Shown one piece after another: positions 18,396 through 59,469 of a DNA stretch of 64,000 nt. The translations under genes and the position numbers were made by a program. Each line of letters begins with the position of its first letter. The stretch's first letter is position 1. The notes beneath the pieces were generated by a model. That model was not told where the DNA came from, ran no database searches, and saw only the letters and a program-made list of their open reading frames with translations. Source of the DNA: Planctomycetota bacterium (GTDB taxonomy: Bacteria > Planctomycetota > Planctomycetia > Kolteriales > Kolteriaceae); assembly GCA_046350335.1 (NCBI GenBank), contig JAXMAQ010000017.1, positions 57,165-121,164 on the forward strand, written 5' to 3'.

Positions 18396-20318
18396 CTATT
18401 GGCGTTGATCGGGTAGCGTGCTTCGGTCTGACCCTCGGGGATGGTGACGACGATGCCGCGCCCACCTGGGGGCTGGAAGGGAAAAGTAAAGGGCAATGGG
18501 AGCGTTATACCCCTCTTTTCGCTCGGCAATCACCTTCAATTCCATGGAACCGTTCTGAACCAGGGGAACTTTCGGCTCGACGACCGAGATCTTGAAGGGA
18601 GCCTCGTCGGTGACGGCGACCGCCAGCCGATCGACGCTCGTTTGATAGTAGACAGTGATGTTAGGTGGGCCGGTGACAAGGTCTACTTTCTGGAGCAGCG
18701 AGCCGCGAATTTTCTGATTGGGGTCGGCATGGGTGGCGAACAGGTCGACCAGTTTCCCGACGACCGGCGCGTCGGGAGCCGCTTCGAACACGACTGGGAC
18801 CAAGCCAAGATTATCGGCCATGTTTTCCGCTTGAACGGTGACCTTTTCTGGGAGTCCGTCAGCGCCGATGACTAGCTCGCCGCCAAAATTCACCCGATTG
18901 CCCTGAATCAACGTAGCGTAGCGATTGCCACGCGGCACCGGCACGGTTTGGCGTTCCTGGGAGCTTTGTGCCACTTGGGGAATGGATAGGGTCAGGGAAG
19001 CGGCAACGGGCTGAGTTTCGACGCGATAGACGTAGTCCGAACCTCCCTTGCCCAGGTGATCCGTGACGCGAATGAAGTATTCCCCGTCGGCGGGGGCTTG
19101 GAAACGGAGATAACTATCGGGGCCAAAGGCATCGTCATTACCGACGATGGCGTTGCCGTTGATGTCGTGCACGGTGAGGACCGCGTCGAGGGCGGACCGA
19201 AGCCGGCGAGCGTAGACGTGAATTTCAAAAACCTGACCCGCGCCCGCCTTGACCTTGAAGCAGTCGATGTCCCCTTTTTCGGAAATGATGCCATTACATG
19301 CCAAGGGGAGAGGGATGGGCGCCAAGGTTGCATTGGAGAACTCGTTGTTCGGCTCCGCCTCGAGCAGGTTTGTCAGATCGGTGACCCGGAACGGATTGGG
19401 GGATGGCGAAGACAGGCCATTTTGATCGAGAAAAAGACTGAAATCGGACTTAGGTGCTTCCGGCAATTTCACCGTTTGGGTCGCTTCGCCAGCGACATCG
19501 CCGAGGAATTTGAGGGTAAGTTCTTCTCCCACCTTGCCGCCGGAGGGATAAACGGCGCTCGGACGGGGGAAATTCCCGACATGCAGTCGGTATTGGCAAG
19601 AGCCGTTGCCGCCATAGGCGCTCTCGCGAACCTGTACGACATACTTGCCGTCCGCCGGCGCGATCACGGAGGCAAAGGTATCTTGCAGTAACAGGGCGGT
19701 ATCGTCGTTGGCGGCCAATTCAAAACGCTTTTCATCGAGAATGGCGACGTAAACGTCGAAGAGCGTGATTCCCAGGCGAATGGCTTCGACCTCGGCGCTG
19801 ATGCGGTCTCCCTTTTTCGCCTCGACCACGAAATAGTCCACGTCTTCGTTTTCGACCGTGCCCGCGACCGTAGTATTGATGGGAATTGCTTGTGGTTTTG
19901 CAAATTCGTTATTGGGCTCCGTCTCGGCGAGGGCGGGAAACATTCCGACTTGAAAAACGCGAAGTTCGGAAATACCGGTCGCGGTTCGCAATCGGAGCGG
20001 ATGTTCGCCGAGCGAACAATCGGGGGCAATCTTGATCTTCGCCTTCACCTGGTTGTTATTGACGACTTCGAGGCCAAGCACCTCAATGCCGGGCTTGTAG
20101 AAGAGGATCTGCTGCGCGTCGGAGAGGCGATCTCCGCCGAGGAAGATCTCCATCTCCGTGCCGCGCTGTCCTCCCCAGGGGTTGACAGCGCCGAGAGTGG
20201 GAGAAGCCCCGTTCGCCGCGTCAACGCCGGTGAGCGCCGCGACGAAAGGAACAACCGCGAGAGTCAAAAAACGGAGCAACGTTCGCGCGGGGCGAATGTG
20301 GGAAACGGTTGCAGACAT
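18396..20318 (-). CDS. Secreted protein with two PPC (pre-peptidase C-terminal) domains; 3' end apparently frameshifted
   Basis: Signal peptide, then two copies of the EPNNEF…G(T/I)…(D/E)(V/I)D(Y/C)F motif. Past a G5 run (plus strand 18468-18472) the protein-like sequence continues in another frame (PGGRGIVVTIPEGQTEARYPINANSGGQTRKWKVVVILPGDG…). The real product probably extends to about 18216 across one or two frameshifts. Confidence 0.65.
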   Translation of the reverse strand: MSATVSHIRPARTLLRFLTLAVVPFVAALTGVDAANGASPTLGAVNPWGGQRGTEMEIFLGGDRLSDAQQILFYKPGIEVLGLEVVNNNQVKAKIKIAPDCSLGEHPLRLRTATGISELRVFQVGMFPALAETEPNNEFAKPQAIPINTTVAGTVENEDVDYFVVEAKKGDRISAEVEAIRLGITLFDVYVAILDEKRFELAANDDTALLLQDTFASVIAPADGKYVVQVRESAYGGNGSCQYRLHVGNFPRPSAVYPSGGKVGEELTLKFLGDVAGEATQTVKLPEAPKSDFSLFLDQNGLSSPSPNPFRVTDLTNLLEAEPNNEFSNATLAPIPLPLACNGIISEKGDIDCFKVKAGAGQVFEIHVYARRLRSALDAVLTVHDINGNAIVGNDDAFGPDSYLRFQAPADGEYFIRVTDHLGKGGSDYVYRVETQPVAASLTLSIPQVAQSSQERQTVPVPRGNRYATLIQGNRVNFGGELVIGADGLPEKVTVQAENMADNLGLVPVVFEAAPDAPVVGKLVDLFATHADPNQKIRGSLLQKVDLVTGPPNITVYYQTSVDRLAVAVTDEAPFKISVVEPKVPLVQNGSMELKVIAERKEGYNAPIALYFSLPAPRWARHRRHHPRGSDRSTLPDQRQ

Positions 20319-20390
20319 CGACGTCCTCGTGCAATGGTTTTGCGTCGCGGGACCGCCATCGACATCCGTGCTTTTGGCGTCCGTAAGCGA

Positions 20391-21782
20391 TTACGCGATG
20401 AGATCCTTGACCACTTTTCCGCCGTCCACAATCTCGATGGGCCGATCTCCGGGTGCCATCAGTTCCTTGTCGGCGACGATGCCCAGCTGTTTGTAGACCG
20501 TGGTGGCGAGGTCTTCGATACCCAGGGGATCTTTTTCTGGTTCCGATGCGGTCGCGTCCGATGTGCCGTAGATGAAGCCCTTTTTGATGCCTCCACCGGC
20601 GAGCACGACGCTGAAAACCTTGGGCCAATGGTCGCGGCCCGCCGTGCCATTGATCTTGGGGTAGCGAACTCGGACAGGGCCATCACCAAGGTGCTGTCGA
20701 GCAATCCACGTTGCTCGAGGTCGCGGATCAAGGTGGCCGAACGCGACGTCAAGGCCGGCAATTGATTTGCCATTCCGCCTCTCGCACGTCGTTGTGCATC
20801 CCATCCACCATAAGTCAAAGGAGACGAACCGAACGCCCGCTTCGACGAGTCGGCGGGCAGAGCAGCATGCGTTGGCCCGCGGCGTTCCTGCCGTATTTGT
20901 CGCGCAGTTCCGTTCAGCACCGCGTGGATGACGAACGCTTCGCGCGCTGCTGCCGAACTGATGAGCCCGTAGGCTTTCTGATAGAAAGAGTCCGTAGCGT
21001 CGGAAGAGCATCAGACTTTTTCCTTTTTGGCGAAATACTCATCGACGGCAGCGAGAATGCCGCGACGGCTATTGAACGCATCTCATCGATGCCGCGAGGC
21101 CAAAGCCAAGTCTTGTACGCGGAAGTCGCCGCTCGCCGGATCGCTTCAGGCTGAACGGTCGTACACCGAACTCAGGTAGCCGCTGCCGGCGAGTGGTCGG
21201 CATGCTCAGGTCACAGACGTAGGGAGGAAGATTGTTGCGCTCGATGCTGCGACTCGTGAGACACCCGCTCCCATGCTCGGAAAGATGAGCGGGGACTCGG
21301 CTTGTAGCCGGTGAACATGTTGTGGGTGCCGCGTTCGTAGGCTGCTTCGCCATGGGTCATGGACCGGCAGATCGTGATCTTGTCCGCGATCTGTGCCGTT
21401 TCTTTAAGCATTTCGTTGATGCGTTCGCCTGGAATCTTGGTCTCGATGGAGCCCATGTCTCCCCGGTATTCGACGACGGGCATAGGGCTTCGGATCGAAG
21501 GATTCTTGATGCGCTATGCCACCCGGCAGGAGATGTGGATGACCGATTTCGCGCCTGACCTTCAACGCTCTGGTAGTTCTTTTGCTCGCCTCACTTGGCG
21601 CTTTTGCCCGGAAGAAGTCGCCGAGGGTCAATCAACCCGCCACGTAGCCGGTAAAAAAGGAAATCTCGCCGGGACTTACGGCGAAAATGAGCAGGATCAT
21701 CGTGCCAGGTGCCGCTTGATCTTCTTTCCATGATCGTACTCCGAGTCACCCACGTGGAGGCATTTCCTGTGCCCATAGCCAT
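20391..21782 (-). pseudogene. DUF1501-family (sulfatase-like, Tat-secreted) gene disrupted by at least five frameshifts
   Basis: Fragments in three minus-strand frames align colinearly with the intact DUF1501 at 37338-38783: RRDFL Tat motif, HQESFDPKP, RSMTHGEAAYERGTHNMFTGY, ALTSRSATLIRDLEQRGLLDSTLV, then NGTAGRDHWPKVFSVVLAGGGIKKGFIYGTSD…VDGGKVVKDLIA. Confidence 0.7.
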
Positions 21783-22516
21783 TGCCGGAAGGCGAGAACC
21801 TCATGAAACCCTGAAACTCATCATCCATGATTTCGCGTGGAGATTCGAGCCTTCGAATCCCCAATGAAGCTTGGCTGCATCCTGCGTGCCGAGATCGGAC
21901 GATTCGTCCGAGGTTTGCTCCCAGAAACCACCGCCGTACGGACTATTCCTACGTTACCCTGCGTTTTGGTCGACAGACGCGTGGGACGGACGGTTGGAGG
22001 GAGGCGGGACCGCGTGCCTGCAGCGGGCTCCCAGGTTGGTTATGTATGGCTGGTAACGATCGATTCTTCCAGCGCCTTTTTCTCGTCTATCGACAAGTTC
22101 TTTATCGCTCGTTTGAAAAATCGAGTGCGTGTCCGAATCAGTCTAAGTCTCCTGGTCGCGATGTCGAAATATTCCACCAGGGTCGCCGCCATGCCGTCAG
22201 GCTGGCGAAAATTTACCGGATCTTCTGGGCCCAAGGTCATGCTTCGGCAGCATTAGACTCACCGGGTGGCAAGGGGTTCCCAGGTTTTCATTACACCTGC
22301 ATGTTCCGGCACGGTAAAGGGTTGCTGATTTTCCGGCTTGCCGCGAATGGTGTTAAAGGTAGGCGTTCCGTAAGTGTATTTCTGGAATGGCTTTGGTGGT
22401 TTTTGCCCTGATTGGCGAGAAATCCGCGGATTCAATACCCGCGTGAGGAATTGGCTGGTTGGCGGGACGGATGGGCTAGAATTGAGGCGTAAGGCGGTAG
22501 AGGTCGAATTCAGTCC

Positions 22517-23827: not shown

Positions 23828-24434
23828 ATGGGGCATTACACTGGCCCTAAGGGACGAATCAATCGACGTTTGGGCGCTTTGATTTACGAAGCCTCGGGGG
23901 CGGCGCGGGCGCTGGAACGGCGCGATTATCCGCCGGGTATGCACACCCGCCGGGGGAAGATGTCCAATTACGGAATTGGGCTCAACGAAAAGCAGAAGAT
24001 CAAGCACTATTATGGCTTGGGCGAGCGGCAGCTCCGTCGGTATTACGAGCGTGCCAGCCGGATGGCGGGCAACACTGGCGAGAACATGCTTTTGATCTGC
24101 GAGCGGCGTTTGGACAACGTCGTCCGACGTGCCGGAAAACCGCGCGTACCCGGTCGCAAGCCCGGCGAAACTTGTTCATTGCCATTTCGCGGTTAATGGC
24201 GTGAAGGTGAACAAGCCATCATTCCTGGTTCGGCCGGGCGACGTCATCACCGTCGTTCAAGTCAAGTTGCAGGGGGTCTATCAGGCGATCATCGATGGCC
24301 TGAAAGCGGATCCCATTCCGTGGGTGAATTTCGAAGCGGATGCTCTTCGCGCCACGGTGACCGGTTATCCTGGGAAGACCGACATCAGCCTCCCCGTTGA
24401 AATCGGGTTGGTTATCGAGTTCATGTCCCGCTAA
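23828..24434 (+). CDS. rpsD: 30S ribosomal protein S4, interrupted by an apparent +1 frameshift at an A4 run (24136-24139)
   Basis: N-terminus MGHYTGPKGRINRRLG…ERRLDNVVRRAG is in one frame (ORF 23828-24196). The S4 domain RAYPVASPAKLVHCHFAVNGVKVNKPSFLVRPGDVITV… is in the +1 frame (ORF 24129-24434). Deleting one A restores a canonical S4. Confidence 0.85.
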
Positions 24435-24930: not shown

Positions 24931-25448
24931 TCGAACTGGCCTCCCCAACGACTGGCATCCCACCGACTCGAAACGGGATCGACGACATGGGTTGGGGGAA
25001 GTGGAGGGACGTCTTCCGCTCTTCCCGAGACGAAGATCACCAAGCCGAATCGGCTTCCACGTGAACTCGAATTTCCGACGTCGAACCTACAATTTGTTGC
25101 AAGGTAGCACTCCGCAACTCGCGACAGCGAGGTGGGCAACCCGATCCAGTGGTTCGCGCTCCATAAGGTTCGAAACCTTTTCCCTGCCGGTGACGAAATC
25201 GTGATCCACGGAGTTCGTCGCCTTGCGACGGCTGGAGGTGTTGTGCTCTATGAACGACGAGAAATCCAGGCTCGTTACTCGATCATACCCGGGCAAAAAA
25301 CGCGTGCATAGCCCTATCCAGCAAATTATCTTGTGCGCGCAAATACTTATCACGACTTTCTTTTTATCGGGAATTTCGACGCAGTTCCGGCACTCGAAAG
25401 TCGGCGTTAAGGGCAACCTGATGGTACGATTCTCGGCGGGCGCGGGTG

Positions 25449-25703
25449 CTAGGAACGAAGTGGTTTTTGCCCATGCAACGCCCGCAATTCCTGAGCGGCG
25501 CGCCAACTCTCCGTCGTTGTTTGCAGAAAACGGGTAATGGACGCCGTGGAGACGCTGAGCAGGTCACCGAGGTCGGAGATTCTTCCTTGATGCTCGTGTA
25601 CAAGATCGAGCACGAATGCGATCGTGGGAAGAAAACGTGGGTCTCGCGCGGGGAAATCGAGAGAGTTTGAAGATCGAAAGGCTTCGAGGGATGCGGGCGT
25701 CAC
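25449..25703 (-). CDS. Putative small winged-helix (ArsR-like) transcriptional regulator
   Basis: DPRFLPTIAFVLDLVHEHQGRISDLGDLLSVSTASITRFLQ resembles an ArsR/SmtB HTH recognition helix. The assignment is weak. Confidence 0.35.
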   Translation of the reverse strand: MTPASLEAFRSSNSLDFPARDPRFLPTIAFVLDLVHEHQGRISDLGDLLSVSTASITRFLQTTTESWRAAQELRALHGQKPLRS

Positions 25704-25973
25704 CGGTTGCCTGTGCTGGAAAGCGAGAGCCTCACGGAGTCGGCGGATCGCTCGTTTCTGGTTTTCCGGGCGATATCTGCTTTCGGTGGCCGTTGGGGAA
25801 TGAGACCGGTGGGCAAGTGGCGGAGTCGAACGGCGGCGGAGTCGGTTTGTTCGCTACGAAATTGCCCCCTGGGCCGCTCGCGCGATAGTGGTCCTCCTCG
25901 CGTTGCGCAAGGAGTTCGGTGTCCGAGAGGCTCCACCAATCGATGCGCGCGTCCCCGGGCCCCGGCGCGTCTC

Positions 25974-26204
25974 TCAATGTTCCGTATCGTCCGTCAAAGA
26001 GAGGGCAAGCAACCCACCCACCACGGCTCCACCGATTGGAATCAATCCCCCGGCGGCCAAAATCATCGGCAGCGATTCCCGCTCCACGATCGCGAACATG
26101 AACAACACGAAAAGAAAGGAGCCGAAGGCGGACCAGGCAACCACCTTGCCGACGAATTTGAAGTCGATAGTTACCGCGTCGCTCTCTTGCTGTTGCTCTG
26201 CCAT
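25974..26204 (-). CDS. Hypothetical small two-TM membrane protein
   Basis: 76 aa with two hydrophobic helices. A GAGGA ribosome-binding site lies 8-12 nt upstream of the ATG. Confidence 0.45.
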   Translation of the reverse strand: MAEQQQESDAVTIDFKFVGKVVAWSAFGSFLFVLFMFAIVERESLPMILAAGGLIPIGGAVVGGLLALSLTDDTEH

Positions 26205-33935: not shown

Positions 33936-34182
33936 CCCAATCTCCGTGGGCGCGCCTCCACGGTGTCCGGGCCAGGGATGCAGGATCCCTCTTGGCGCAA
34001 CGGCACGAGATCCCAGGATTTGCCATGACTTGGGCCTGGGGATTTGGGTAGAATAAATGCGAAGGTCAGCCACGCTCTCCAATGCCAGGGATGAGCATGC
34101 GTTTCGTTTGTTCCTGGCCCCCGCCCAGCGGGACGATGCATCTTGGACTTTCCACGCGGTTCTCCAAAGGTTGGATCCATTG

Positions 34183-37100
34183 ATGGCAGCCCTGTTCCCT
34201 AGCAAACGGAATTCTCGGGAGACATTGGCCACGCACAAAAGTGGCGCGGGGTTACTCCGCCCCTTTTGTTCCGTCGTCCCCCTTCTGCTGCTGGGCTGGG
34301 GATCGGTTCCCAGATCTGCTCATGCAGAGCCAAACGCGGATTACGAACGGGAAGTGCGGCCGATCTTCGTTCAACGATGCATTCAATGCCATGGACCGAC
34401 GAAGCAGAGCGGCGGTTTACGGTTGGACGGCATCGAATCGATTCGGACCGGTGGCGACAGTGGGCCAGCCGTCCAGAACGAAAAGCCGGAAGCGAGTCTA
34501 TTGCTCCGTGCCGTGCGTCAAGAGGACGACGTGTCGGCAATGCCTCCAGAAGGGGAGGCTTTGTCCACGGAAATCGCTTTTGACTCGGTGGATCGAGGCT
34601 GGCCTGCCGGGAACGGATGGCGGTGCCTCGAAAAAGGTGTCGAGTGATCACTGGTCGTTCCAGCCCGTGAAACGTCTGGCGATGCCCGAAGTTCGAAATC
34701 CATCGTGGTTCGCCATCCGATCGATTCCTTTATCCTTGCCAAGTTGGAGAAAGAAGGGATTTCGCCGGCCCGCGAAGCGAGCAAAGAGACCCTCATTCGA
34801 CGTCTGAGTCTCGATCTGGTGGGTTTGCCGCCGACTCCGGAAGAAGTGGAAGCGTTTTTGCTCGACAATCGGCCGGACGCCTACGAACACCTGGTCGAGC
34901 GCTTGCTCGCCTCGCCGCATTACGGAGAACGCTGGGGCCGATTCTGGCTCGACATGGCTCGTTATGCCGACTCGAATGGCTACACGATTGACGGGCCCCG
35001 CGAGATTTGGAAGTATCGCGATTGGGTAATTGAGGCTCTCAACCAGGACATGTCGTTCCGCCAATTCACCATCGAGCAGCTCGCCGGCGACCTGCTGCCC
35101 GATGCCACGCTCGCGCAGCGGATCGCGACCGGTTTTCATCGCAATACGATGATCAATGAAGAGGGTGGAACGGACGATGAGCAGTTTCGCGTCGAAGCGG
35201 TTGTCGATCGCGTGTCCACGACGGGCGAGGTTTTTCTCGGGTTGACGCTCGGGTGCGCCCAATGCCATAGCCATAAGTTCGATCCGATCACACACAAGGA
35301 GTTCTACCAGTTCTTCGCGTTTTTCAACAACTGCGACGAACCGTCTCTCGAAGTCCCGACGCCGGAACAGGAGAAGATACTCGCTCGCGTTCGGGGGGAA
35401 GTTTCCAAACTCGAAGCACAAATCAAAACTCGCGAGGAGGAACTCGCGAAATCGCACGAGGCTTGGTTGAGTGACTTGCAGTCGTCCTGGGATCGTTGGA
35501 TCGACGTCATCCCCTCGAGCGCTCTTTCCGAGGGAGGGGCCACGCTTGCCGTCCAGTCGGATCGCTCGGTTTTGGCGGGCGGCGTTAACGCCAAGCAGGA
35601 CGTCTATACCGTGGTGGCGAACACCGAACTGACGGATATCGTCGGATTTCGCCTGGAGGTATTGATCGACGATTCGCTGCCGTCGAAAGGGCCCGGCAGG
35701 GCGAGCAATGGCAATTTCGTGCTCGGCGAGTTTTCCGTCGCCGTGACCCCACTCGGAGACCCGACGGGGAAGAAGGTCATTCCGCTAAAATCCGCGGTCG
35801 CGGACCATTCCCAGCCGCAATACCCGATCGAAAACGCCATCGATGGCAACGACAAAACCGGCTGGGCCATCAATACCGCGGACAAAAAAGGGGCGAATGT
35901 CCCTCGCGTGGCTCTTTTTCTGACAAAAGAGCCGGTTGGTTATCCTCAAGGCGCCACATTGATCTTTACCTTGTCGCAGCAAGCGGTGGAGAGCTACAAC
36001 CTCGGCCGTTTTCGCATTTCGCTAACTCGAAAAGGTGGCGAGGCTCCTAAACTCGTTCCCAATACCTTGGTCAATATTTTGAAAACCCCTGCGGATCAGC
36101 GAACGGAGGATCAAAAGAAAGAGCTTCGCGATCGCCAATTCGACGAGGACGGGAGGCGTCGAAGGTTGGAGAAGCAAATAGCCGTTCTCAAGAAGCAGAT
36201 TCCAGGAATTCCCAAAACAATGGTGCTGGCGGAGCGTAAAGAAGTTCGGGACACGTTCGTGCACATTCGTGGAGACTTCCTTCGCAAAGGGGCAAGGGTC
36301 GAGCCGGGCGTCCCCGCCGTCCTCCCTTCGCTGAAGACCGCAGGCCGGCCCGGTCGCCTCGATCTCGCCCAATGGTTGACGTCGCCGGAAAATCCATTGA
36401 CCTCCCGCGTGATCGTCAATCGCGTTTGGCAGCAGTATTTCGGCAGGGGAATCGTCGAGACCGACAACGATTTCGGAACTCAGGGGACGCCGCCGTCCCA
36501 TCCGGAACTGCTCGACTGGCTTGCCAGTGAATTTGTCGAAAAAGGTTGGAGCTTGAAGCAATTGCATCGGTGGATCGTTTATTCCGCGACTTACCGCCAA
36601 TCCTCCGATGCCCGCCCGGAGCTCAAGGAGGTCGATGCCCGGAACGTGTGGCTCGCGCGTCAGAATCGTCTCAGGCTCGATGCCGAGGTGATTCGCGATG
36701 CGGCGCTCGCCGTGAGCGGTCGGCTTTCGAGAAAGATTGGCGGGCCTAGCGTATTTCCTCATCAGCCGGACGGTGTCATGGCCTTGGCACAGGTCAACCG
36801 TCCTTGGAAAGTAAGCGATGGAGAAGATAAGTATCGCAGGGGTCTCTACACCTACTTTTGGCGCTCCACGCCCCATCCGTTTCTCAAGGTCTTCGATTCC
36901 CCCGATGCGCAGAGAGCGTGTACCCGGCGTTCGCGATCGAACACGCCCCTGCAGTCGTTGACCTTGCTCAACGACGCGGCGTTCATGGATTGCGCAAGCG
37001 CCTTGGCGGAGCGTATTCCGAGGGAATGCAACGGCGACGACTCGGCACGCATGCGCTATGCCTTTCGGCTCGCCATGGCTCGCGAGCCGTTACGGGAGGA

Positions 37101-37329
37101 GTTCGAAACGCTGATGACGTTCCTCCATCAGCAAAAAGCCGACTCGACTGAAGGTTCGGATTTCGCTCGGAAAGAGGATCCAGAGATCGTCGGCACGGGA
37201 AGCGAGGCCGGGGTCGCGGTTTCTCCGGGCGCGTCGGAAAGGGAGTCCGAGGAAGTAACGCGAACCCGTGCGTGGACCGCGGTGGCCCGCGTGCTCCTCA
37301 ACCTCGATGAGTTCATTACCCGGGAGTAG
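34183..37329 (+). CDS. PSCyt1 cytochrome c / DUF1549 / DUF1553 protein, with two compensating frameshifts near the 5' end
   Basis: Signal peptide then CIQCHGP…MPPEGEALS (PSCyt1) in frame 1. HWSFQPVKRLAMPEVRNPSW is in frame 2 (34582-34708). VRHPIDSFILAKLEKEG… through the C-terminus is back in frame 1 (ORF 34705-37329). The shifts fall at a T4 run (34578-34581) and near 34706-34708. Confidence 0.75.
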
Positions 37330-47121: not shown

Positions 47122-47532
47122 CGAAGAGAATGCGAGCCCACCTTCCTCGATGTCCGGGGGTGAATAGATGTTTTTGAAGTGACGACGGAAATCGTTACTC
47201 GACTTGTTCTTGCGGTCCAATGCGTAATTTCATCCATGCGATCTTCGAAAACTAGTTATAATAGTCGGCAGTGTAGCCGAGTTCCGCGTCCACCAGGGTC
47301 GCGGGAGCGGGGGACCCAACTGAAAGCCGAGGAAACTCGGTTTTCTGGGGCGCAGGCTCGCAACGCCGCGAGTCGGAGCACTTTCAAGCTCTAGCCCGTC
47401 AGCTAACCTCGTAGGCCGGTCCGCGATGTGTCGTCGCTGGCCGTTCGTTGAAAGTGCACTCCACGTCAAAGCGGCGTCACGCGACGCGGAGCGCGGGTTT
47501 CCATCCGGGCATTCCTGCCCTGAAGGTGCTCC

Positions 47533-50170: not shown

Positions 50171-50201
50171 TGTTTGCGTCGTGAGGAATCCGGAGGAAGT
50201 C

Positions 50202-50801
50202 ATGAACATCACCACCATCTCCCCGAAACAGTTGAACGATGCTGTCCAGGCGGATCCAGCGATCGAGTTGATCGATGTGCGGACCCCTGTGGAATTTCGC
50301 GAAATGCACGTCAGGTTCGCGCGTAACGTCCCACTGGATCGTCTCGCGAAGGACCCGTCCATCATGGATCGCAAGGGAACGTCCAATCCCCTCTACGTGA
50401 TCTGCCGCTCGGGAAGCCGGGGCAAGCAAGCGTGCGAAAAGCTGATCGCCGCTGGCGTCACGAACGTGGTCAATGTGGAGGGAGGCACGCAGGCGTGGGA
50501 CGAAGCGGGACTCCCGGTCGTGAAAGGTCAAAAGGCGGTTTCCCTCGAACGGCAGGTACGCATCGCAGCGGGTTCGTTGGTGCTTCTCGGCTCCGCCTTG
50601 GCGTTCTTCGTCAGCCCCTATTGGATCGGGCTGGCGGCCTTCGTGGGAGCCGGTCTGGTGTCTGCGGGCGTTACCGACACCTGTGGCATGGCGATGTTGC
50701 TGGCACGGCTGCCATGCAACCAAGTCCGTCACCGCGCTGGGGACAAGGCCAAGGAAACCATGTTTTGCAAGACAAGTTCGAAACCGAAATGTTGTGCCTG
50801 A
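50202..50801 (+). CDS. Rhodanese-domain / DUF2892 membrane protein (YgaP-like sulfurtransferase)
   Basis: A GGAGGA ribosome-binding site is present. The CRSGSRG active-site loop is followed by a two-TM DUF2892 region with C-terminal cysteines. Confidence 0.8.
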   Translation: MNITTISPKQLNDAVQADPAIELIDVRTPVEFREMHVRFARNVPLDRLAKDPSIMDRKGTSNPLYVICRSGSRGKQACEKLIAAGVTNVVNVEGGTQAWDEAGLPVVKGQKAVSLERQVRIAAGSLVLLGSALAFFVSPYWIGLAAFVGAGLVSAGVTDTCGMAMLLARLPCNQVRHRAGDKAKETMFCKTSSKPKCCA

Positions 50802-50858
50802 GCTCCTCGCGTGACGGCGCGTCCGGAGGGTCAAGCGGCTGCAAAGGGAGAAGTCACC

Positions 50859-51197
50859 ATGTCCTTGATTAACCGGAGTCTCGAAAAAAACATTTGCACG
50901 CTTGGTATTACTGATCGCCCATTCCCGTGCTGGTGGATTTTTATGCCAACTGGTGCGGACCTTGCTGCCGTTAGCGCCCCGTCGCTCGAACGATTAGCCA
51001 GCAGATTCACCGGTCGCGTGAAGATCGTCAAGGTCGACGTCGACGAGGAGCATGAACTGGCGAACGAGTTTCACGTGGCGTCGATTCCGACTTTGGCATT
51101 CTTCGCGGAAGGAAAATTCGTCGGCAAAACCGCAGATGCCTCGTGCCGGAAGGGGGCTGCGAAAAGTTTTGAATCGGCTTGCGGCGGAGAGGATTGA
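50859..51197 (+). pseudogene. trxA: Thioredoxin, disrupted by three (possibly four) single-base frameshifts
   Basis: Three pieces sit in three frames: MSLINRSLEK|TFARLVLL, then SPIPVLVDFYANWCGPC, then VSAPSLERLASRFTGRVKIVKVDVDEEHELANEFHVASIPTLAFFAEGKFVGK. Shifts fall at an A7 run (50884-50890), at CTGA (50911-50914) and at the WCGPC active site (about 50953-50960). ERIDK in an alternative 3' frame hints at a further shift. Confidence 0.6.
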
Positions 51198-51356
51198 CAA
51201 GCGCCACGTTGGCACGTCCTCCACGGGCACTAACGCCGCGACTACCTGGCGGAATGGATAAAAGGGATTCCGCCCGGCTGGAAGGGACTTTCACCAGCTC
51301 GGCGACGCAAAACTCTTGATGGTCGCTCGGCAAGATTTGATGACGGAGAACCAATC

Positions 51357-52775
51357 ATGATTCTGAAACAGTATTATCTCGGCTGCCTGTCTCATGCCTC
51401 CTACTTGGTCGCGGACGAGAAGACGAAAATCGCGGCGGTCGTCGATCCTCAGCGGGACGTCGAACAATACCTGCGTGACGCGGCGGAGGGTGGCTATTCC
51501 ATTCGCTACGTCTTTCTGACGCATTTCCACGCGGATTTTCTCGCCGGGCACATTGAATTGCACTAATCGAACGAATGCCGAGATCGTGATGGGAGCACGA
51601 GCACTGGCGGTTCGCCAAACTCCGCGGCGAACGATGGCGATTGCTTCAACTTGGGGGAGGTCCGAATCCAAATCTTGGAAACTTCGGGGCACACTCCCGA
51701 AGGGATCTCACTACTCGTATTCGATAAATCCCAAAACGAATCGTCGCCCCAAGCAGCCCGGTGTTGACGGGGGACACGCTTTTCATCGGCGACGTCAGTC
51801 GTCCCGACCTCTTGGCGTCCATCGGCGTGACGGCGGATGAATTGGCCGAAATGCTTTACCATTCGCTCAGCAAACTGCGCTGATTGCCGGACGACACGCT
51901 CGTTTATCCGCGCACGGCGCTGAGTCGATGTGTGGCAGAGTCTGAGCAAGGAAACGGTTTCGACGATCGGGGTGCAAAAGCGTTTCAGTGCGCGCTCCAA
52001 CCCATGAGTCTCGACGATTTCGAAGCGACTGGTGACGGCGGATCGGCCAGGCGGCGGACTATTTCGTGTATGACGCCATCAAGAATCGTCAGGAACGTCC
52101 CGATCTTGAAGCGACGCTTCGCTCTTCACTCAAGGCCTTGTCCGTCGACGACGCCCTTGGGTTGGCTCAGGGCGCGCGGTGGTGGACGTTCGAGAGGCCA
52201 TCGACTTCGAAGGAGCACATCTCGCGGGCGCGATCAATATCGGCCTAAAGGGAAAGTATGCGACCTGGTGTGGCTCGGTGCTCAGCCATGCTCATCCCAT
52301 CGTGGTCATTGCAGATCCAGGTAGCGAAGTGGAGGCCATCACGCGGCTCGGCCGCATTGGCTTTGACAATGTGGCTGGATTCCTCGGTGACGGCATGGCG
52401 GCCTTGGAAAACCGCCCGGAACTTCTGCGGCGCATACCTCGGATCACTGCCGCCACGCTCGCAGAACTGTTGGCCGAGCCGAATCCACCTTACGTCTTGG
52501 ACGTGCGCTCGGAGAAAGAATGGCAATCGGGCCACGTGGACGGCAGTCACAATATTCCGCTGAATCGTCTTCGCGAACGAATTTCGGAAGTGCCTGCGAA
52601 CCGTCCGGTGATCGTGCATTGCGAAGGGGGGTATCGTTCGGCGATCGGCGCCAGTCTCTTGGCGGAGGCGGGCCGAAGCAACGTGACTGACCTGGTGGGC
52701 GGGTACAAGGCCTGGCTCGCGTCGAAATTGCCGGTGCAATCGGAGACGGCCTGCTATTGCCGCTTGGAAAAGTAA
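51357..52775 (+). pseudogene. Persulfide dioxygenase (MBL-fold ETHE1-like) - rhodanese fusion gene, disrupted by about 6-7 frameshifts
   Basis: Colinear fragments across all three frames: THFHADFLAGHIEL; [12 protein letters not shown]; [18 protein letters not shown]; [20 protein letters not shown]; LPDDTLVYP; FQCALQPMSLDDFEA; DYFVYDAIKNRQERPDLE; then an intact rhodanese domain VVDVREAIDFEGAHLAGAIN…HCEGGYRSAIGASL (ORF 52179-52775). Confidence 0.7.
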
Positions 52776-53045
52776 GACGTTCATGGCTGCAATGAACTCC
52801 CTCTCTCGGCGGAGAGCCGCAATAAACTCGTTCTCCCGCCGGGAGAAGGGCGGGGTGATGGGCCTTTACACGACAAACCTGCGCGTATCCCACTCCCCAG
52901 CAACGTAGCGGCATTACTGTTCCGAAGCTCAATGGCACGCGTGAAAGCGTTCAGTCGGAATCGGCGGTTTTCCTGGGCTGGAACGTCATTGCGCATGGGT
53001 CGAATGGACTTTCGGCCGCGGCGTGGAAGAACGAGAACTCACGGG

Positions 53046-53880
53046 ATGGGGGAATTCGACGTGTCACCGCTTACCTTCTTCTTTGGCGCCTTGGTGGGTT
53101 TTTCCCTCGGGCTCACGGGGGGAGGAGGGGCGATCTTTGCCGTCCCGCTGCTCGTCTACGGCTTGGGAGTCCCCGCGCGTGAAGCGGTCGGTGTCTCCTT
53201 GTTGACAGTGGGAGCCACTTCGCTGGTCGGCTTCTTGCATCGCGCGAGACATCGCATGGTCGAGTTTCCGACTGGTTTGTTGTTCGCGGCGGCGGGCATG
53301 ATTAGTGCGCCCGTGGGCGCGCTGGCCGCCGATCGAATTCCGGAGCCCTTTCTGCTCACGTTGTTCGCCGGCCTCATGGTCGTGATCGCCGCACGGATGT
53401 GGAAGTCAGCCGCGGAGTCGACGTTTCGATTGCCCATCGTCACCGACGAAAACAAGGGGCCCACGTGCCGACGCGATCCGGAAGGAAAACTCCGCCTGAC
53501 GTCGCGATGTGCCATGCTGTTGTTGCTCATTGGCCTGGGAGCAGGCGTTCTGTCGGGTCTGTTCGGCGTCGGTGGCGGATTCATCATCGTGCCCGCCTTG
53601 GTCTTCTTTAGCAGCATGGGAATCCAGCGGGCCATCGGTACTTCGCTCTGGTCATCACTCTGATCGGCGCCCTCTGGAACGGCGAGTCATCTTCTGGCGG
53701 GCAAGGATCTTTCCATTGCGATCGCGGCGTTATTCACGGCTGGAAGCCTCGCCGGCGCCTCTATGTGGGAACTGGACTGGCACGGCGGCTCGCCGGCTTG
53801 TCCTGCAGAAGGTGTTCGCGATCGCGATTTTGCTCGTTTCCGCGTTCGTCTTGTTTCGCACGCTCGGCGGGGTTTGGTGA
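53046..53880 (+). pseudogene. TauE/SafE-family sulfite/anion exporter, C-terminal third disrupted by four or more frameshifts
   Basis: N-terminus is intact (GALVGFSLGLTGGGGAIFAVPLLVY…). Between 53648 and 53800 the sequence hops frames 0, 2, 0, 2, 1: AIGTSL / VITLIGAL / SGTASHLLAGKDLSIAIAALFTAGSLAGASMWEL / TGLARRLAG / RLVLQKVFAIAILLVSAFVLFRTLGGVW. Confidence 0.65.
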
Positions 53881-53920
53881 GGAGTTTCGCCGCATCCTGA
53901 AATATCGGGATTTTAATCCA

Positions 53921-54487
53921 ATGGCTTCGATTCGCGAGGGGAATATGCGTCTAACGTCAATGTTGATGGCGTGCCTGCTTGTGGGCGTAACGCTTGGGGC
54001 CGGGAAGGAAGGATCGGACCTTCGGTTTCCGCGAATCGCCGACTTTGGCGGCGTCGTTGACGTGCCTGGTGCCGTCGAGCCGCCTCGCCGGGGAACCAAA
54101 ATCGTCTTTGATGTCCTCGCGGAAGGGAAGCCGGCGGAACTGAATAAGGGACTCGAAAGCGTCGCGCGCTACCTGAATCTGAATGCAACTGCTGGTAACC
54201 CGCACACGGAGGTCACGCTCGCGGTCGTTTTGCATGGCGGAGCGACGCGAGTCGCGCTCGATGACCCGGCCTATGCACGAGTAACGGGAAATGCAAAGAA
54301 CCCCAACCTCCCCTTGATCCTGGCTTTGAAAAAGTCGGGGGTTGAAGTCCTGGTTTGTGGACAATCCCTCGCCCGGCATGATTTCTCGACATCGGAGGTG
54401 GCTGCGGGCATTGACGTCGCCGTCTCCGCAATGACCGTGAACGCAAACAAGCAACAAGACGGTTACTCCTACATCGTGATTCCTTAA
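53921..54487 (+). CDS. DsrE/DsrF-like family protein (secreted)
   Basis: Signal peptide, then …KIVFDVLAEGK…VVLHGGATRVALDD…LVCGQSLARH… fits the DsrE fold. Confidence 0.55.
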   Translation: MASIREGNMRLTSMLMACLLVGVTLGAGKEGSDLRFPRIADFGGVVDVPGAVEPPRRGTKIVFDVLAEGKPAELNKGLESVARYLNLNATAGNPHTEVTLAVVLHGGATRVALDDPAYARVTGNAKNPNLPLILALKKSGVEVLVCGQSLARHDFSTSEVAAGIDVAVSAMTVNANKQQDGYSYIVIP

Positions 54488-54501
54488 TCGGAGGGCTCGC
54501 C

Positions 54502-55056
54502 ATGAGAAAAACAACTGGCGTTCGCTTGGCGACGATCGGCTTGGGATGGATCCTGCTCACGTCCGTCATTCACGCCGAAGAAGGAGGGCAGGGACACCGG
54601 GGTCGCGGCTCGTCGGGACGTGGTCGGGGCGGCGATCCCGCGTTTGTCGAAGATCGGAAGATCTTTCATCAGCTGCTCCAGCATCGCGATTCCATCCGTC
54701 GGGAGGTCAAAAACACCGAGTATGGCGTCGAGACGATTACCGAGTCGGACGATCCGAAGGTAGCCTCGCTCATTCAGCTGCACGTCGCTTCGATGAAAAG
54801 ACGGGTCGAGGAACGGCGCCCGATCCATCAGCGAGATCCCCTCTTCGCGGCCCTATTTCAACACGCGGACGAGATTCAGTTCACCTTCGAAAGGACCGCG
54901 AAAGGGGTTCGCGTGAAGGAAACCTCGGAGGATCCATACGTCGCAACGCTCATTCAAGGGCACGCTCGGGTCGTCTCTTGGTTTATCGAGCGTGGACCCG
55001 ATGAAGTACATCGCAACCATGAAGCACCCGCGAAAAAGAAAGAGGCGAATCCATGA
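54502..55056 (+). CDS. Hypothetical secreted protein with internal duplication (DPxVAxLIQxH repeats)
   Basis: Signal peptide, a Gly/Arg-rich linker and two about 60-aa repeats (…ESDDPKVASLIQLHVASMKRRVEE… / …TSEDPYVATLIQGHARVVSWFIER…). Confidence 0.5.
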   Translation: MRKTTGVRLATIGLGWILLTSVIHAEEGGQGHRGRGSSGRGRGGDPAFVEDRKIFHQLLQHRDSIRREVKNTEYGVETITESDDPKVASLIQLHVASMKRRVEERRPIHQRDPLFAALFQHADEIQFTFERTAKGVRVKETSEDPYVATLIQGHARVVSWFIERGPDEVHRNHEAPAKKKEANP

Positions 55057-56255
55057 CAAACTCTTCCATCAAAAATCATTATCAGGTGTTGATTCTCGGC
55101 GGTGGCTCGGCGGGCATCACGGTGGCGGCCCGTTTTCTTAAAAAGCTCAAAGGGGGCGATGTCGGCATCGTCGAGCCTTCCACCAAGCACTATTACCAGC
55201 CGCTCTGGACGCTCGTCGGCGCCGGTGTCTTTCCCAAAGAGATTACGCAGCGGGACGAGGCCTCGTTCATTCCGCGAAGGGCCGACTGGATTCGGGAGGC
55301 GGTTCATGACATCCATCCCGACGACAACTGCGTCACCACGTCGAGCGGACGCCGGATAAGTTATGACTTCCTCGTCGTCGCGTTGGGGATCCAGATCGAT
55401 TGGGGGAAGATTCCCGGTCTCAAGGAAGGGCTTGGCAGCCACGAAATCTGCAGCAATTATTCCTACCAGCACGTCGACTATACCTGGAAATGCGTGAGCG
55501 GTTTCAGAGGGGGGACCGCGCTTTTCACGATGCCCAGCACGGCGGTCAAGTGTGGCGGGGCGCCTCAAAAGATCATGTATCTTGCCGATGATTCCTTTCG
55601 CCGATCGGGCGTGCGGGACAAGTCTCGCGTTCTCTTCGCCTCCGCTCAAGGATCCCTTTTCGCCGTCGAACGGTACCGGCGGACTTTGGAAAAGGTCGCG
55701 TCGCGCAAGGGAATCGATGTTCGCCTCAAGCACAACCTCGTCGAACTGAAGCCCGAGCGGAAGGAAGCGGTTTTCGAGCATTTGGAAACGAAGGAACGGA
55801 TAACGATTCCCTTCGACATGATCCACGTCACTCCTCCGATGAGCGCTCCCGACGTCATCAAGAGAAGTCCGTTGGCGAACGAGGCGGGCTGGGTTGATGC
55901 GGACAAATACACGCTGCGGCATCCCACCTATGCGAACGTCTTTTCGATCGGGGATTGCAGTGGTTTGCCGACGTCTAAAACGGCGGCGGCGATTCGCAAA
56001 CAAGCGCCGGTGGTCGTGGAGAATCTCGTTGCCGCGATCCACGGTCGGCCGATCGAGGCTCGGTATGACGGCTATACCTCTTGTCCGCTTGTCACGGGAT
56101 ATGGCAAGCTGGTGCTCGCGGAGTTCGATTACGAAGGCCAGCCGACGGAGACCTTCCCTTTCGACCAGTCCAAGGAACGCCTTTCGATGTATCTGCTCAA
56201 GGCCCATGCCCTACCGAGGCTCTATTGGCATGGCATGCTCCGCGGCCGCGCCTGA
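55053..56255 (+). CDS. sqr: Sulfide:quinone oxidoreductase, type II (SQRDL-like)
   Basis: VLILGGGSAG FAD motif, HYYQPLWTLVGAG, and the redox Cys residues in KCGGAPQK and GDCSGLPTSKT. Its ATG overlaps the upstream stop (ATGA). Confidence 0.85.
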   Translation: MTNSSIKNHYQVLILGGGSAGITVAARFLKKLKGGDVGIVEPSTKHYYQPLWTLVGAGVFPKEITQRDEASFIPRRADWIREAVHDIHPDDNCVTTSSGRRISYDFLVVALGIQIDWGKIPGLKEGLGSHEICSNYSYQHVDYTWKCVSGFRGGTALFTMPSTAVKCGGAPQKIMYLADDSFRRSGVRDKSRVLFASAQGSLFAVERYRRTLEKVASRKGIDVRLKHNLVELKPERKEAVFEHLETKERITIPFDMIHVTPPMSAPDVIKRSPLANEAGWVDADKYTLRHPTYANVFSIGDCSGLPTSKTAAAIRKQAPVVVENLVAAIHGRPIEARYDGYTSCPLVTGYGKLVLAEFDYEGQPTETFPFDQSKERLSMYLLKAHALPRLYWHGMLRGRA

Positions 56256-56405: not shown

Positions 56406-56936
56406 TCAGTCGACGACCGCTTCGGGGTGGGCTTCGCGGAAGCGTCGGACGGAGGAGTCGACTTCCAGGAGTGCCTCTTTGGCGCAGACCCAGCCGCCGG
56501 GTTCGACGGTGACCCCTTCAAGCTGCTTGTAGGTCGCGAAGAAGTGGGCCACTTCCTTCAAAAAGTGAGGCGGAACGTCTTCAAGCTTGTTGAAGCTCGC
56601 GAACAGCGGGTCGGAGTTCGGAACGCCGAGCACCTTGACGTCGTTAACGCCACGATCCTTCATGCGGAACAGGCCGACAACGCGCGTTTCGATCAGGCAG
56701 CCGGTAAACGTCGGCTCGTTGACCATGACGAGAATGTCGAGCGGGTCGCCATCTTCCGCGAGGGTCTGCGGGATGAAGCCGTAGTCGCTGGGATAGTGGC
56801 TCGAGGCGTAAAGATAACGGTCGAGTCGAAAGAGGCCGGAGTTCTTGTCCAATTCGAACTTGTTGCGATGGCCGCGCGGGATCTCGATGATTGCGTTGAC
56901 CACGGACGGGATATTCGTGCCGGGGGTAATGCTCAT
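56406..56936 (-). CDS. ppa: Inorganic pyrophosphatase
   Basis: …IEIPRGHRNKFELD…DGDPLDILV…GVNDVKVLGVP…. Confidence 0.85.
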   Translation of the reverse strand: MSITPGTNIPSVVNAIIEIPRGHRNKFELDKNSGLFRLDRYLYASSHYPSDYGFIPQTLAEDGDPLDILVMVNEPTFTGCLIETRVVGLFRMKDRGVNDVKVLGVPNSDPLFASFNKLEDVPPHFLKEVAHFFATYKQLEGVTVEPGGWVCAKEALLEVDSSVRRFREAHPEAVVD

Positions 56937-57031
56937 GTACGGGTTATGACTGAACATGGTCCTCATTCCAAGCAAAAGAAATACGGTGGAACGTCAGGTA
57001 TTCAAAGCCGGGGCGCAATATGCCCGCCGAC

Positions 57032-58155
57032 CTATGATTCTCGGGTAATCCTTTCCTGGCCGGGCACGGTGTTTGAGCGGCACTGGGCGCGCCACCGGAG
57101 CCAATGATCGGCAAGCACCAAGGCGACCATCGCCTCTCCCATGGGGACGAATCGAGGCAGAAGGCAGGGGTCATGCCGTCCTTTGGTCGCGATCTCGGTG
57201 GGAGTGCCTGCTTGGGTCACGGTGGGCTGTGGTTTGGACAAGCTGCTCGTCGGTTTGATGGCGACGCGGCAGACGATGGGCAAGCCGCTGCTGATCCCGC
57301 CGAGCATGCCTCCGTGTCGATTGCCCGTCGTGGTGATGTTGCCTTCTTGTTGAACGAAAGGATCGTTGTTTTCGCTTCCTTGGAGGTGGCGACGGCGAAT
57401 CCGGCCCCATATTCAGTGCCGACGACGGCGGGGAGCGAGAGGAGGGCTTCGGCCAGATCCGCCTTTAATTTGTCGAAGACCGGCTCGCCGAGTCCCGGCG
57501 GAACGCCGACCGCGACCAGTTCACTCACCCCGCCAATCGAGTCCTGGTCCAGCCTTACCTCGTCGATCAAGGCGATCATCTTCTCCGCAGCTGCCGGGTC
57601 GGGACACCGTACGATGTTGGACTCAACGGATTCCAGCGTTACCGAAGCCGGATCGGAAACGGAAGCGACGATATTGCCGACCTGTTTGGTGTAGGCGAGA
57701 ACGCGAATCCCTTCGGCAGCGAGGAGTTTTTTGGCGACGGCGCCGGCGGCGACCCGGGCCACCGTCTCGCGCGCGGAGGAGCGACCTCCCCCGCGATAAT
57801 CCCGAAAGCCGTATTTGGCGTCGAACGTGTAGTCCGCGTGCCCTGGTCGATACTTGTCCTTGATGTCCGAGTAATCTCGGCTCCGTTGATCGGTATTGCG
57901 AAATAGGATGGCGACCGAGGTGCCGGTTGTCTTTCCTTCGAACACGCCCGAAAGGATTTCCGGAGCGTCCGCTTCGTCTCGCTGGGTGGTGATTTTCGAT
58001 TGTCCGGGCCGTCGTCGAGCCAGGTCCGGCTCGAGATCCGCTTCGGAGAGAGGAATTCCAGGCGGGACCCCGTCGATGATGACGACGTTCCCCGGGCCAT
58101 GCGATTCGCCCGCCGTCGTGATGCGAAAAAGTTGCCCGAAACTGTTACCTGCCAC
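57032..58155 (-). CDS. aroC: Chorismate synthase, with one apparent frameshift (about 57383-57386)
   Basis: N-terminal part [20 protein letters not shown]…[14 protein letters not shown]… lies in the frame of ORF 57217-58236. The conserved C-terminus …[13 protein letters not shown]…[10 protein letters not shown]…[30 protein letters not shown] lies in the frame of ORF 57032-57307. The N-terminal frame after the shift contains implausible sequence. Confidence 0.8.
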
Positions 58156-58325
58156 AATCCCTACTCGCGAGTGCCAGAAAAGAAACCCGGGCACCGGCCA
58201 AAGATGTCCCAAAAGGCTTGGACGTGGAAACTTCATCGATCCACGCGATCAGCCGCTGGTCATCATATGGAATTCCGCGAGGGGGGCGTTCCGGCGCTCT
58301 GGCCGCCGACGTTTTTCACGAAAGA

Positions 58326-59469
58326 TTAGTACTCGTCAATGATTTCCCGGTCGCGCCAGGTGGAGCCATCGATGGTGTTGAGCTTATAGAAAAGGCCCGG
58401 GTCGATGGAGTTGTCGCGGAAATCGACCGTCCCGTCACCGAAAAGGAAATTGGCGCCCCCAGGATGGGAGCTGGAGAAGACGAACGGTCGGGGGAGCCGC
58501 GGATTGACGGTGGAAGTCGTGTCGGGCGCGTTGATCTTGTAGAACTCGGCTTGTGGGTGTCCCGGCGGATAGACGACCCCATGACAGCTGCCGAAGGTGC
58601 CTCCTCCCCAGAAAGTACCGGAGTTCGGTTCGCTAAGGACTTGTAGCGATTCGCCGACCGCAATGGTTTTATGCACGCCGTCGGTGATTCGTTCGTTGTT
58701 CGCTGCTCCGTTGTTGCCGAACATTCCCATGGGGGGAAACAGCTGATCGCGGGGAAGTTGATCAACGGCCTTGCTGGCGGCTTTCGCTAGCGATTGAGCC
58801 TTGCGCACGCGATTGTGCACGTAGAATCCGTAGGTGTTGCTGTATTCGTCGTACTCGCCGGTCGCGAACCGATAATTGGATCTGCGGGCGTTGCTGGCGG
58901 AATACTTGGCGGTCAGATTCGTGGGCTCAAAGGTTGAGAAATCGGGCTCGGAATCGCTGGGGCAGGTGTAGGCCGCGATGCGGACGCTGACGGCGGTGAT
59001 GCAATTCTGATTGATCTTGTCTTGGACGGAGAGGCCCGCGGGTGTTAAAGGCGCGAGGTCCGTATAGGGACGAGTTAAACGCGCTGGCGCTCGAGGGATA
59101 ATTGTGGTCGTACAGGTCGTAGACGGCATCTTGTTCCAGAAAGGGGAGCAGCAAGAGCCAGCCGGTGGTATTCTGTACCGCCGCCGAGGATCGGCGGCAT
59201 TCCCGGTGCTGTTCGCAGGGTTGTATCTCCGGACAATTTCCTCCGGGAGCAATAGGCGGGGTTGATTTGGCAGGGTAAACCTTGTGACTTTCGTGATAGG
59301 TGCCCAGCGCGTTGCCGATGTTGCAGAAGGTTATTCTGAAGCATTGCGACGGCGAGCCCTTCGCGAACGTAACTGACCGCGGGGAGCAAAATGGCCCGAG
59401 GACACCGATGATGCTGATGACCACCAAAACTTCGATGAGCGTGAATCCCCAGCGCGCGGGTTTTGGCAT
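58326..59469 (-). CDS. DUF1559 protein (prepilin-type N-terminal cleavage/methylation domain plus H-X9-DG motif), with one frameshift
   Basis: N-terminus MPKPARWGFTLIEVLVVISIIGVLG, then …GWLLLLPFLEQDAVYDLYDHNYPSS in the frame of ORF 58927-59469. …YTCPSD…HPGGANFLFGDG (H-X9-DG) is in the frame of ORF 58326-59252. The shift is near plus-strand 59050-59090. Confidence 0.7.

What the first reader, a model, noticed from the sequence alone, without database searches (positions are those of the whole stretch)
18396..59469. Bursts of single-nucleotide frameshifts in otherwise well-conserved genes, including essential ones
Reading all three frames shows that rpsD, aroC, a thioredoxin, a persulfide-dioxygenase-rhodanese fusion, a TauE exporter, a PSCyt/DUF1549 gene, a DUF1559 gene, the PPC-domain gene and a DUF1501 gene are each broken by one to seven indels. 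The translated segments on either side of each break are colinear and perfectly protein-like. Several breaks sit in homopolymers: A4 at 24136, A7 at 50884, T4 at 34578, G5 at 18468. The events cluster in bursts (50.8-53.9 kb, 20.4-21.8 kb, 34.5-34.7 kb), while other long genes (987, 816, 728 and 564 aa) are intact. Two readings are possible: (a) long-read/homopolymer assembly errors in low-coverage stretches, or (b) genuine recent decay of specific loci. Broken rpsD and aroC argue for (a) at least for those two genes, unless paralogues exist elsewhere in the genome.
Basis: seen in the sequence. Interest (0 to 1): 0.7.

Follow-up and report, generated by a model that had tools for sequence, protein, structure and literature searches.

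The report
Patches of sequencing errors breaking genes
About 56 tiny insertions and deletions, packed into nine short stretches of this planctomycete metagenome contig, break ten otherwise normal genes; the pattern points to patches of poor-quality assembled sequence, not to biology.

Summary
Frameshift-aware alignment to intact homologues gives about 56 one- or two-base indels. DUF1501 alone has 11-19 indels and PDO-rhodanese has 9.

All the indels lie in nine patches totalling about 3.4 kb, roughly 1.7 per 100 nt. About 48 kb of other ORFs, containing 178 homopolymers of 5 bases or more, have none.

Patch edges fall inside genes, and sequence on either side matches homologues normally. Insertions are about as frequent as deletions. 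The breaks are not enriched at homopolymers. Inside the patches there are also extra radical substitutions at invariant residues, plus one in-frame TGA.

This spectrum is expected for stretches of a MAG contig backed only by a few noisy long reads, unpolished or used as gap fill. It is not expected for pseudogene decay or recoding. Broken rpsD and aroC point the same way. No sister genome exists in the searched collections, so only read mapping can prove it.

Verdict: an artefact of low interest.

The parts
17801..20318 (-). PPC-domain gene (~830 aa). Error patch at 18146-18488 with about 6 indels, 5 of them insertions. The rest of the gene is clean.
   Evidence: Frameshift-aware alignment to 8 homologues. 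Count is 5-9 across penalty settings. Pfam PPC domain.
20391..21782 (-). DUF1501 gene. Error patch at 20661-21656 with 15-17 indels (insertions about equal to deletions). The last 267 nt (20394-20660) are clean. Start codon uncertain (21731 or 21782).
   Evidence: Match to consensus at columns conserved in at least 90% of homologues is 87% in the patch versus 45/45 in the clean part.
23828..24434 (+). rpsD (ribosomal protein S4). Two frame changes at about 24136-24140 and 24165-24170. The reading passes through all three frames within 30 nt.
25449..25990 (-). RF-1/GGQ-domain gene (ArfB/PrfH-like), read across three frames. At least 3 indels at about 25785-25880.
   Evidence: Three-frame reading. 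The stitched protein matches the GGQ domain of release factors at E=3.6e-8.
34057..37329 (+). PSCyt1/PSCyt2/PSD1 gene. Two indels at about 34576 and 34707. Clean from 34720 onward.
   Evidence: Pfam full-length PSCyt2 and PSD1.
50859..51261 (+). Thioredoxin. 4-5 indels at 50880, 50914, 50966 and 51139-51153. The WCGPC motif is restored after correction.
51357..52775 (+). Persulfide dioxygenase fused to two rhodanese domains. Patch at 51564-52178 with 9 indels, plus an in-frame TGA at 51881-51883 where homologues have K or R. The gene is clean on both sides of the patch.
53043..53880 (+). TauE/SafE exporter. Patch at 53647-53799 with 4 indels. 53034-53646 is clean.
57032..58155 (-). aroC (chorismate synthase). 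A single 1-nt deletion at about 57385.
58326..59469 (-). DUF1559 prepilin-type gene. About 5 frame changes at about 59300-59400 and one at about 59040. Counted by eye only.

Best explanation
The window comes from a 121-kb contig of an uncultured Planctomycetota MAG. It has two quality classes.

About 95% of it is accurate sequence. Nine short patches (1-1300 nt, about 3.4 kb in total) are noisy. They carry roughly 1.5-1.7 indels per 100 nt, plus an estimated 2-4% substitutions. This looks like the consensus of very few error-prone long reads.

The most likely origin is places where short-read support or polishing was missing: long-read bridges between short-read contigs, unpolished dips in coverage, or strain-variable stretches. 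Gene callers then split the affected genes. The genes themselves are almost certainly intact in the organism.

Shown here: the indels, their patchiness, their spectrum and the intact flanks. Inferred: the sequencing and assembly cause.
For: 1. About 56 indels fall in 9 patches, and none fall in ~48 kb of other ORFs. Dispersion p is about 1e-50. Control genes give 0 events at the same settings.
2. Patch edges ignore gene boundaries. Only 340 nt of the 2.5-kb PPC gene is affected. DUF1501 is clean for its last 267 nt. PDO-Rhd is clean on both sides of its patch. TauE is clean for its first 600 nt.
3. Insertions are about as common as deletions (roughly 22 each), all are 1-2 nt, and there is no excess at homopolymers.
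4. Substitutions at invariant residues rise only inside patches.
   - DUF1501: 111/128 match consensus in the patch versus 45/45 outside.
   - PDO-Rhd: the patch has G>N, P>S, G>S, G>E, E>V and a TGA stop, while the flanks show only conservative changes.
5. The mix of substitutions, insertions and deletions resembles raw nanopore error as summarised in the proovframe preprint (3-5% substitutions, 2-4% insertions, 2-4% deletions). That paper also notes that low coverage or local heterogeneity leaves parts of metagenomes unpolishable. Frameshifts in long-read MAGs are a documented artefact (PMC9262707).
6. The backbone keeps frame through 178 homopolymers of 5 bases or more, 49 of them 6 or longer. 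So the contig as a whole is not raw-read quality.
7. The essential genes rpsD and aroC are broken and have no second copy in the window.
8. The source is a MAG: the SPFH protein is 100% identical to NCBI MFO0946361.1.
Against: - No reads, depth or sequencing platform information could be examined.
- No near-identical genome exists in the searched collections to show the intact sequence. The best matches are 76% aa for the SPFH protein and 56% for the PPC protein.
- The substitution estimate is indirect, and some mismatches may be hidden pairs of compensating indels.
- Second copies of rpsD or aroC elsewhere in the genome cannot be excluded.
- Isolated events (aroC, the PSCyt pair) could individually be real.
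Confidence: 0.88

Rival explanations
1. Genuine recent pseudogenisation: these loci are decaying in the living organism.
For: - The indels are in the deposited sequence.
- Several affected genes belong to large paralogous planctomycete families (DUF1501, DUF1559, PSCyt) in which loss of one copy is tolerable.
- One in-frame stop is present.
Against: - Damage is confined to sharp patches inside genes, while sequence downstream of the first frameshift stays as conserved as intact genes.
- The indel-to-substitution ratio is about 1:1 to 1:2, with no deletion bias and no indel longer than 2 nt. From established knowledge, bacterial mutation gives far more substitutions than indels, and shows a deletion bias.
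- rpsD and aroC are hit.
- One patch region spans adjacent genes of an operon, Trx and PDO-Rhd.
Confidence: 0.06
2. The contig is a consensus across co-assembled strains. The patches are strain-variable segments where the mixed read pile-up gave a garbled consensus. This is still an artefact, but one caused by heterogeneity rather than low depth.
For: - The patchy distribution.
- The literature notes that localised intra-population heterogeneity leaves regions unpolishable.
Against: - rpsD and aroC are not expected to be strain-variable.
- Patch sequence has no repeats and no GC shift.
- This cannot be separated from the low-depth model without reads.
Confidence: 0.05
3. Recoding: programmed ribosomal frameshifting or transcriptional slippage restores the products.
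For: A few breaks lie at short A or T runs (A4 at 24136, A7 at 50884, T4 at 34578).
Against: - Up to about 17 shifts occur in one gene, in both directions, about 50 nt apart.
- The longest homopolymer in the window is 7 bases.
- All homologues are single uninterrupted ORFs.
- Extra substitutions and a stop codon accompany the shifts.
Confidence: 0.01

Closest known systems
Frameshift artefacts from residual indels in long-read or hybrid (meta)genome assemblies (proovframe preprint 10.1101/2021.08.23.457338; Sereika et al. 2022, PMC9262707)
   Same: Small indels split genes whose pieces stay colinear with homologues. They occur where coverage or polishing is insufficient. Essential genes are affected. 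They can be corrected using protein guides.
   Different: The classic description stresses genome-wide homopolymer errors. Here the backbone is clean, homopolymers included, and the errors are random-context and confined to nine patches at near raw-read density.
Bacterial pseudogenes in decaying genomes (for example Mycobacterium leprae or recent endosymbionts; from established knowledge)
   Same: Frameshifted genes with recognisable homology.
   Different: True decay spreads over the whole gene, is dominated by substitutions and deletions of varied length, and spares essential single-copy genes. None of this holds here.
Programmed +1/-1 frameshifting (prfB, dnaX) and transcriptional slippage rescue at long poly(A) tracts in endosymbionts (from established knowledge)
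   Same: The reading frame changes inside a functional gene.
   Different: Those cases have one conserved site per gene, with a slippery motif or a run of about 9 bases or more. Here there are dozens of unconserved sites in random context.

Membership tests
Assembly/sequencing indel artefact (low-depth or unpolished long-read stretches) | ORF fragments on either side of each break are colinear with single-ORF homologues. | tested here: met
Assembly/sequencing indel artefact (low-depth or unpolished long-read stretches) | Errors are distributed by position in the contig, not by gene, and the rest of the contig is clean. | tested here: met
   Nine patches with edges inside genes. 0 events in ~48 kb of other ORFs.
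Assembly/sequencing indel artefact (low-depth or unpolished long-read stretches) | Error spectrum like read noise: 1-2 nt insertions and deletions in similar numbers, accompanied by substitutions. | tested here: met
   About 22 insertions and 22 deletions. Excess radical substitutions and a TGA inside the patches. Compared with the spectrum quoted.
Assembly/sequencing indel artefact (low-depth or unpolished long-read stretches) | Low read depth, or no accurate-read support, at the affected positions. | not testable with these tools
   No reads are available and no platform information was retrievable.
Homopolymer-type error (454 / Ion Torrent / nanopore consensus) | Indels concentrated in homopolymer runs. 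| tested here: not met
   7 versus 5.0 expected near runs of 4 or more; 16 versus 16.8 near runs of 3 or more. 178 runs of 5 or more are in frame in intact ORFs.
Genuine pseudogenes (genome decay) | Damage spread through the whole gene, including downstream of the first disruption. | tested here: not met
   Clean segments within the same genes match conserved columns at 96-100%.
Genuine pseudogenes (genome decay) | Substitutions far outnumber indels, with a deletion bias and variable indel length. | tested here: not met
   Indels at about 1.5-1.7 per 100 nt against an estimated 2-4% substitutions. Insertions about equal deletions. All are 1-2 nt.
Genuine pseudogenes (genome decay) | Affected genes are dispensable or backed up by a paralogue. 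| tested here: inconclusive
   rpsD and aroC are broken and have no second copy in the 64-kb window. The rest of the genome is not available.
Programmed ribosomal frameshifting | A single site per gene with a slippery motif, conserved in homologues. | tested here: not met
   Up to about 17 sites per gene in both directions. Homologues are uninterrupted.
Transcriptional slippage rescue | Breaks at long A/T runs (about 9 bases or more). | tested here: not met
   The longest run in the window is 7 bases, and most breaks are not at runs.

The most novel reading that the evidence does not exclude
Some or all patches are real: short tracts of clustered in-vivo mutation (for example error-prone repair synthesis) in a planctomycete lineage, tolerated because second copies of rpsD and aroC exist elsewhere in the genome.
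Probability: 0.02. Interest if true: 0.75.

Novelty: not a real feature. Interest (0 to 1): 0.08.

Why it matters
Taken at face value, the frameshifts would suggest that a free-living planctomycete is losing ribosomal protein S4, chorismate synthase and a sulfide-detoxification operon. That conclusion would be wrong.

The practical value is a warning:
- This MAG contig contains raw-read-quality patches.
- Gene calls, pseudogene counts, completeness estimates and metabolic reconstructions from it will be distorted. This applies especially to the sulfide oxidation operon and the DUF1501/PSCyt clusters.
- The contig should be re-polished, or frame-corrected with protein guides, before use.

Tried and rejected
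- **Exact-product look-ups.** The 816 aa and 728 aa proteins found no contig.
- **Sister genomes.**
  - The closest SPFH relative (76%) sits in a genome with no synteny to the window.
  - The genome-contig scan gave at best 56% identity.
  - The metagenome scan gave at best 82% identity over a partial match.
  - So no sister genome was available.
- **Homology-free frame tracking.** Codon and hexamer Viterbi tracking was too noisy to count events, and I used it only as a guide.
- **Plain tblastn.** It blurred the frames, so I wrote a frameshift-aware aligner and validated it on a synthetic case and on intact control genes.
- **Apparent indel at 54513.** I rejected it. It comes from aligning untranslated upstream sequence of stop-to-stop ORFs.
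- **RF-like gene.** Pfam on the single fragments found nothing. Only the stitched sequence matched release factors.
- **Homopolymer-driven error.** Tested and rejected.
- **Repeats or GC anomalies as a cause of the patches.** None found.
- **Recoding and slippage.** Considered and rejected; see the rival explanations.
Full report
**What the window is.** The window has about 58% GC. It carries typical planctomycete families: PSCyt1, PSCyt2, PSD1, DUF1501, DUF1559 and DUF1570. The SPFH protein at 47533-49719 is 100% identical to NCBI MFO0946361.1, 'MAG: SPFH domain-containing protein [Planctomycetota bacterium]', on a 121,164-bp contig. No close relative was found. The next best SPFH homologue is 76% identical and lies in a non-syntenic genome. 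The best genome contigs match to the PPC protein is 56%. The best metagenome matches to the rhodanese part of the PDO fusion are 76-78% full length and 82% over a partial match. A direct comparison with a sister genome was therefore impossible.

**Checking the observation.** To count events, I wrote a protein-to-DNA aligner that allows 1- and 2-nt frameshifts. It recovers planted indels exactly. It reports none in intact control genes at the working penalty or a stricter one. Homologues came from two sets of loci:
- 80 genome loci around the DUF1501 / PPC / PSCyt2-PSD1 / WD40 cluster.
- 34 metagenome loci around a syntenic sulfur operon.

**Event counts by gene.**

| Gene | Position of events | Count |
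|---|---|---|
| PPC gene | 18146-18488 | ~6 |
| DUF1501 | 20661-21656 | 15-17 (11-19 across penalties) |
| PSCyt | ~34576 and ~34707 | 2 |
| Thioredoxin | 50880-51153 | 4-5; WCGPC restored |
| PDO-rhodanese | 51564-52178 | 9, plus a TGA at 51881-51883 where homologues have K/R |
| TauE | 53647-53799 | 4 |
| rpsD | 30 nt at ~24136-24170 | 2; passes through all three frames |
| aroC | ~57385 | one 1-nt deletion |
| DUF1559 | ~59300-59400 and ~59040 | ~6 by eye |
| RF-1/GGQ gene | ~25785-25880 | ≥3 |

- For rpsD, the middle frame encodes ARTRSQAR, which matches ARTRRQAR in solved S4 structures. The stitched protein aligns end to end.
- For aroC, the stitched protein aligns end to end with chorismate synthase 5z9a at E=1e-122.
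- For DUF1559, the two fragments are colinear on the Pfam model.
It is spread over three frames, and its stitched translation matches release-factor GGQ domains.

The total is about 56 events in ten genes.

**Distribution.** The events form nine patches spanning about 3.4 kb, roughly 1.7 per 100 nt, with a median spacing of 50 nt. The patches are separated by clean blocks of 1.5-16 kb. The index of dispersion in 1-kb bins is 6.4, p about 1e-50. The clean sequence was checked in three ways:
- The 987, 816, 481 and 400 aa genes and several others give no events in the aligner.
- About 20 further ORFs show full-length Pfam domains.
- Together about 48 kb of ORFs keep frame through 178 homopolymers of 5 bases or more.

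Patch edges fall inside genes:
- The PPC gene is perfect for 1.8 kb before its patch and again after it.
- DUF1501 is perfect in its last 267 nt.
- PDO-Rhd is clean on both sides of its patch.
- TauE is clean for its first 600 nt.

**Spectrum.** Insertions and deletions are about equally frequent, roughly 22 each, and all are 1-2 nt. Proximity to homopolymers equals the chance expectation: 7 versus 5.0 for runs of 4 or more, and 16 versus 16.8 for runs of 3 or more. Patches have no repeats elsewhere in the window and unremarkable GC.

At alignment columns conserved in at least 90% of homologues, the window departs from consensus mainly inside patches:
- DUF1501: 111/128 match in the patch versus 45/45 outside. 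The mismatches include isolated changes of invariant H, P, S and E.
- PDO-Rhd: the patch shows G>N, P>S, G>S, G>E and E>V plus a stop. The flanks show only conservative changes (I>V, V>I, A>G and similar).

Converted roughly to nucleotides, this is 2-4% substitutions on top of about 1.6% indels. The conversion is my inference. Some mismatches may be hidden pairs of compensating indels.

**Interpretation.** A clean backbone with short stretches of random insertion, deletion and substitution noise at near raw-read density is what a MAG contig looks like where the consensus rests on very few long reads. That happens at long-read bridges between short-read contigs, at places without short-read polishing, or in locally heterogeneous regions. 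The proovframe preprint summarises nanopore raw error as 3-5% substitutions, 2-4% insertions and 2-4% deletions. It also notes that low coverage and localised heterogeneity leave parts of metagenomes unpolishable. Frameshifts in long-read MAGs are a well-documented artefact (PMC9262707). The assembly cause is inferred, because no reads or platform data could be examined.

**Rivals.**
- *Genuine decay.* This predicts damage along whole genes, substitutions far outnumbering indels, a deletion bias with variable lengths, and sparing of rpsD and aroC. The first three were tested and not met, and rpsD and aroC are both hit.
- *Programmed frameshifting or transcriptional slippage.* This is excluded by the number, direction and context of the sites. 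The longest run in the window is 7 bases. All homologues have uninterrupted ORFs.
- *Strain-mixture consensus.* This is a variant of the artefact that I cannot separate from low depth.

**Verdict.** As a biological feature it is almost certainly not real, and its interest is low. What remains untested is read support, which is the decisive experiment.

Noticed in passing
window 47265-47432 (+); L081 9730-9899: A c-di-AMP riboswitch (RF00379, 56 bits) lies about 100 nt upstream of the SPFH/Band-7 (YqiK-like) gene at 47533-49719. The same riboswitch-SPFH arrangement occurs in a relative whose SPFH protein is 76% identical (67 bits).
   Followed up: partly
window ~25449-25990 (-): An RF-1/GGQ-domain gene (ArfB/PrfH-like) is split over three frames. 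The stitched protein also shows three single-residue insertions relative to RF2, which may be in-frame errors or natural variation.
   Followed up: partly
window 50193-56255 (+); loci L082-L111: A sulfide-detoxification-type operon: rhodanese-YgaP, thioredoxin, PDO with two rhodanese domains, TauE, a DsrE-like protein, an unknown 184-aa protein, and a 400-aa Pyr_redox_2 (SQR-like) protein. The gene order is conserved in many of the 34 metagenome loci fetched.
   Followed up: partly
window 12301-21782 (-); loci L001-L080: A four-gene cluster: DUF1501, a PPC-domain protein of ~830 aa, PSCyt2-PSD1 (816 aa) and WD40+PSCyt1 (987 aa). The PPC-domain gene has relatives in 80 Planctomycetota and Verrucomicrobiota loci, and homologues of the three neighbouring genes occur in many of them. 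Its function is unknown.
   Followed up: no
window 51881-51883: An in-frame TGA inside the PDO-rhodanese patch, at a column where 20 of 25 homologues have K or R. It is consistent with a single-base substitution error.
   Followed up: yes
window 21800-22500 and 25100-25450: Stretches with no recognisable ORF or Pfam hit, next to error patches. They could be intergenic, or genes too damaged to recognise.
   Followed up: no
The frame change itself maps about 20 nt away, at about 18479-18488. There may be an additional in-frame error here.
   Followed up: partly
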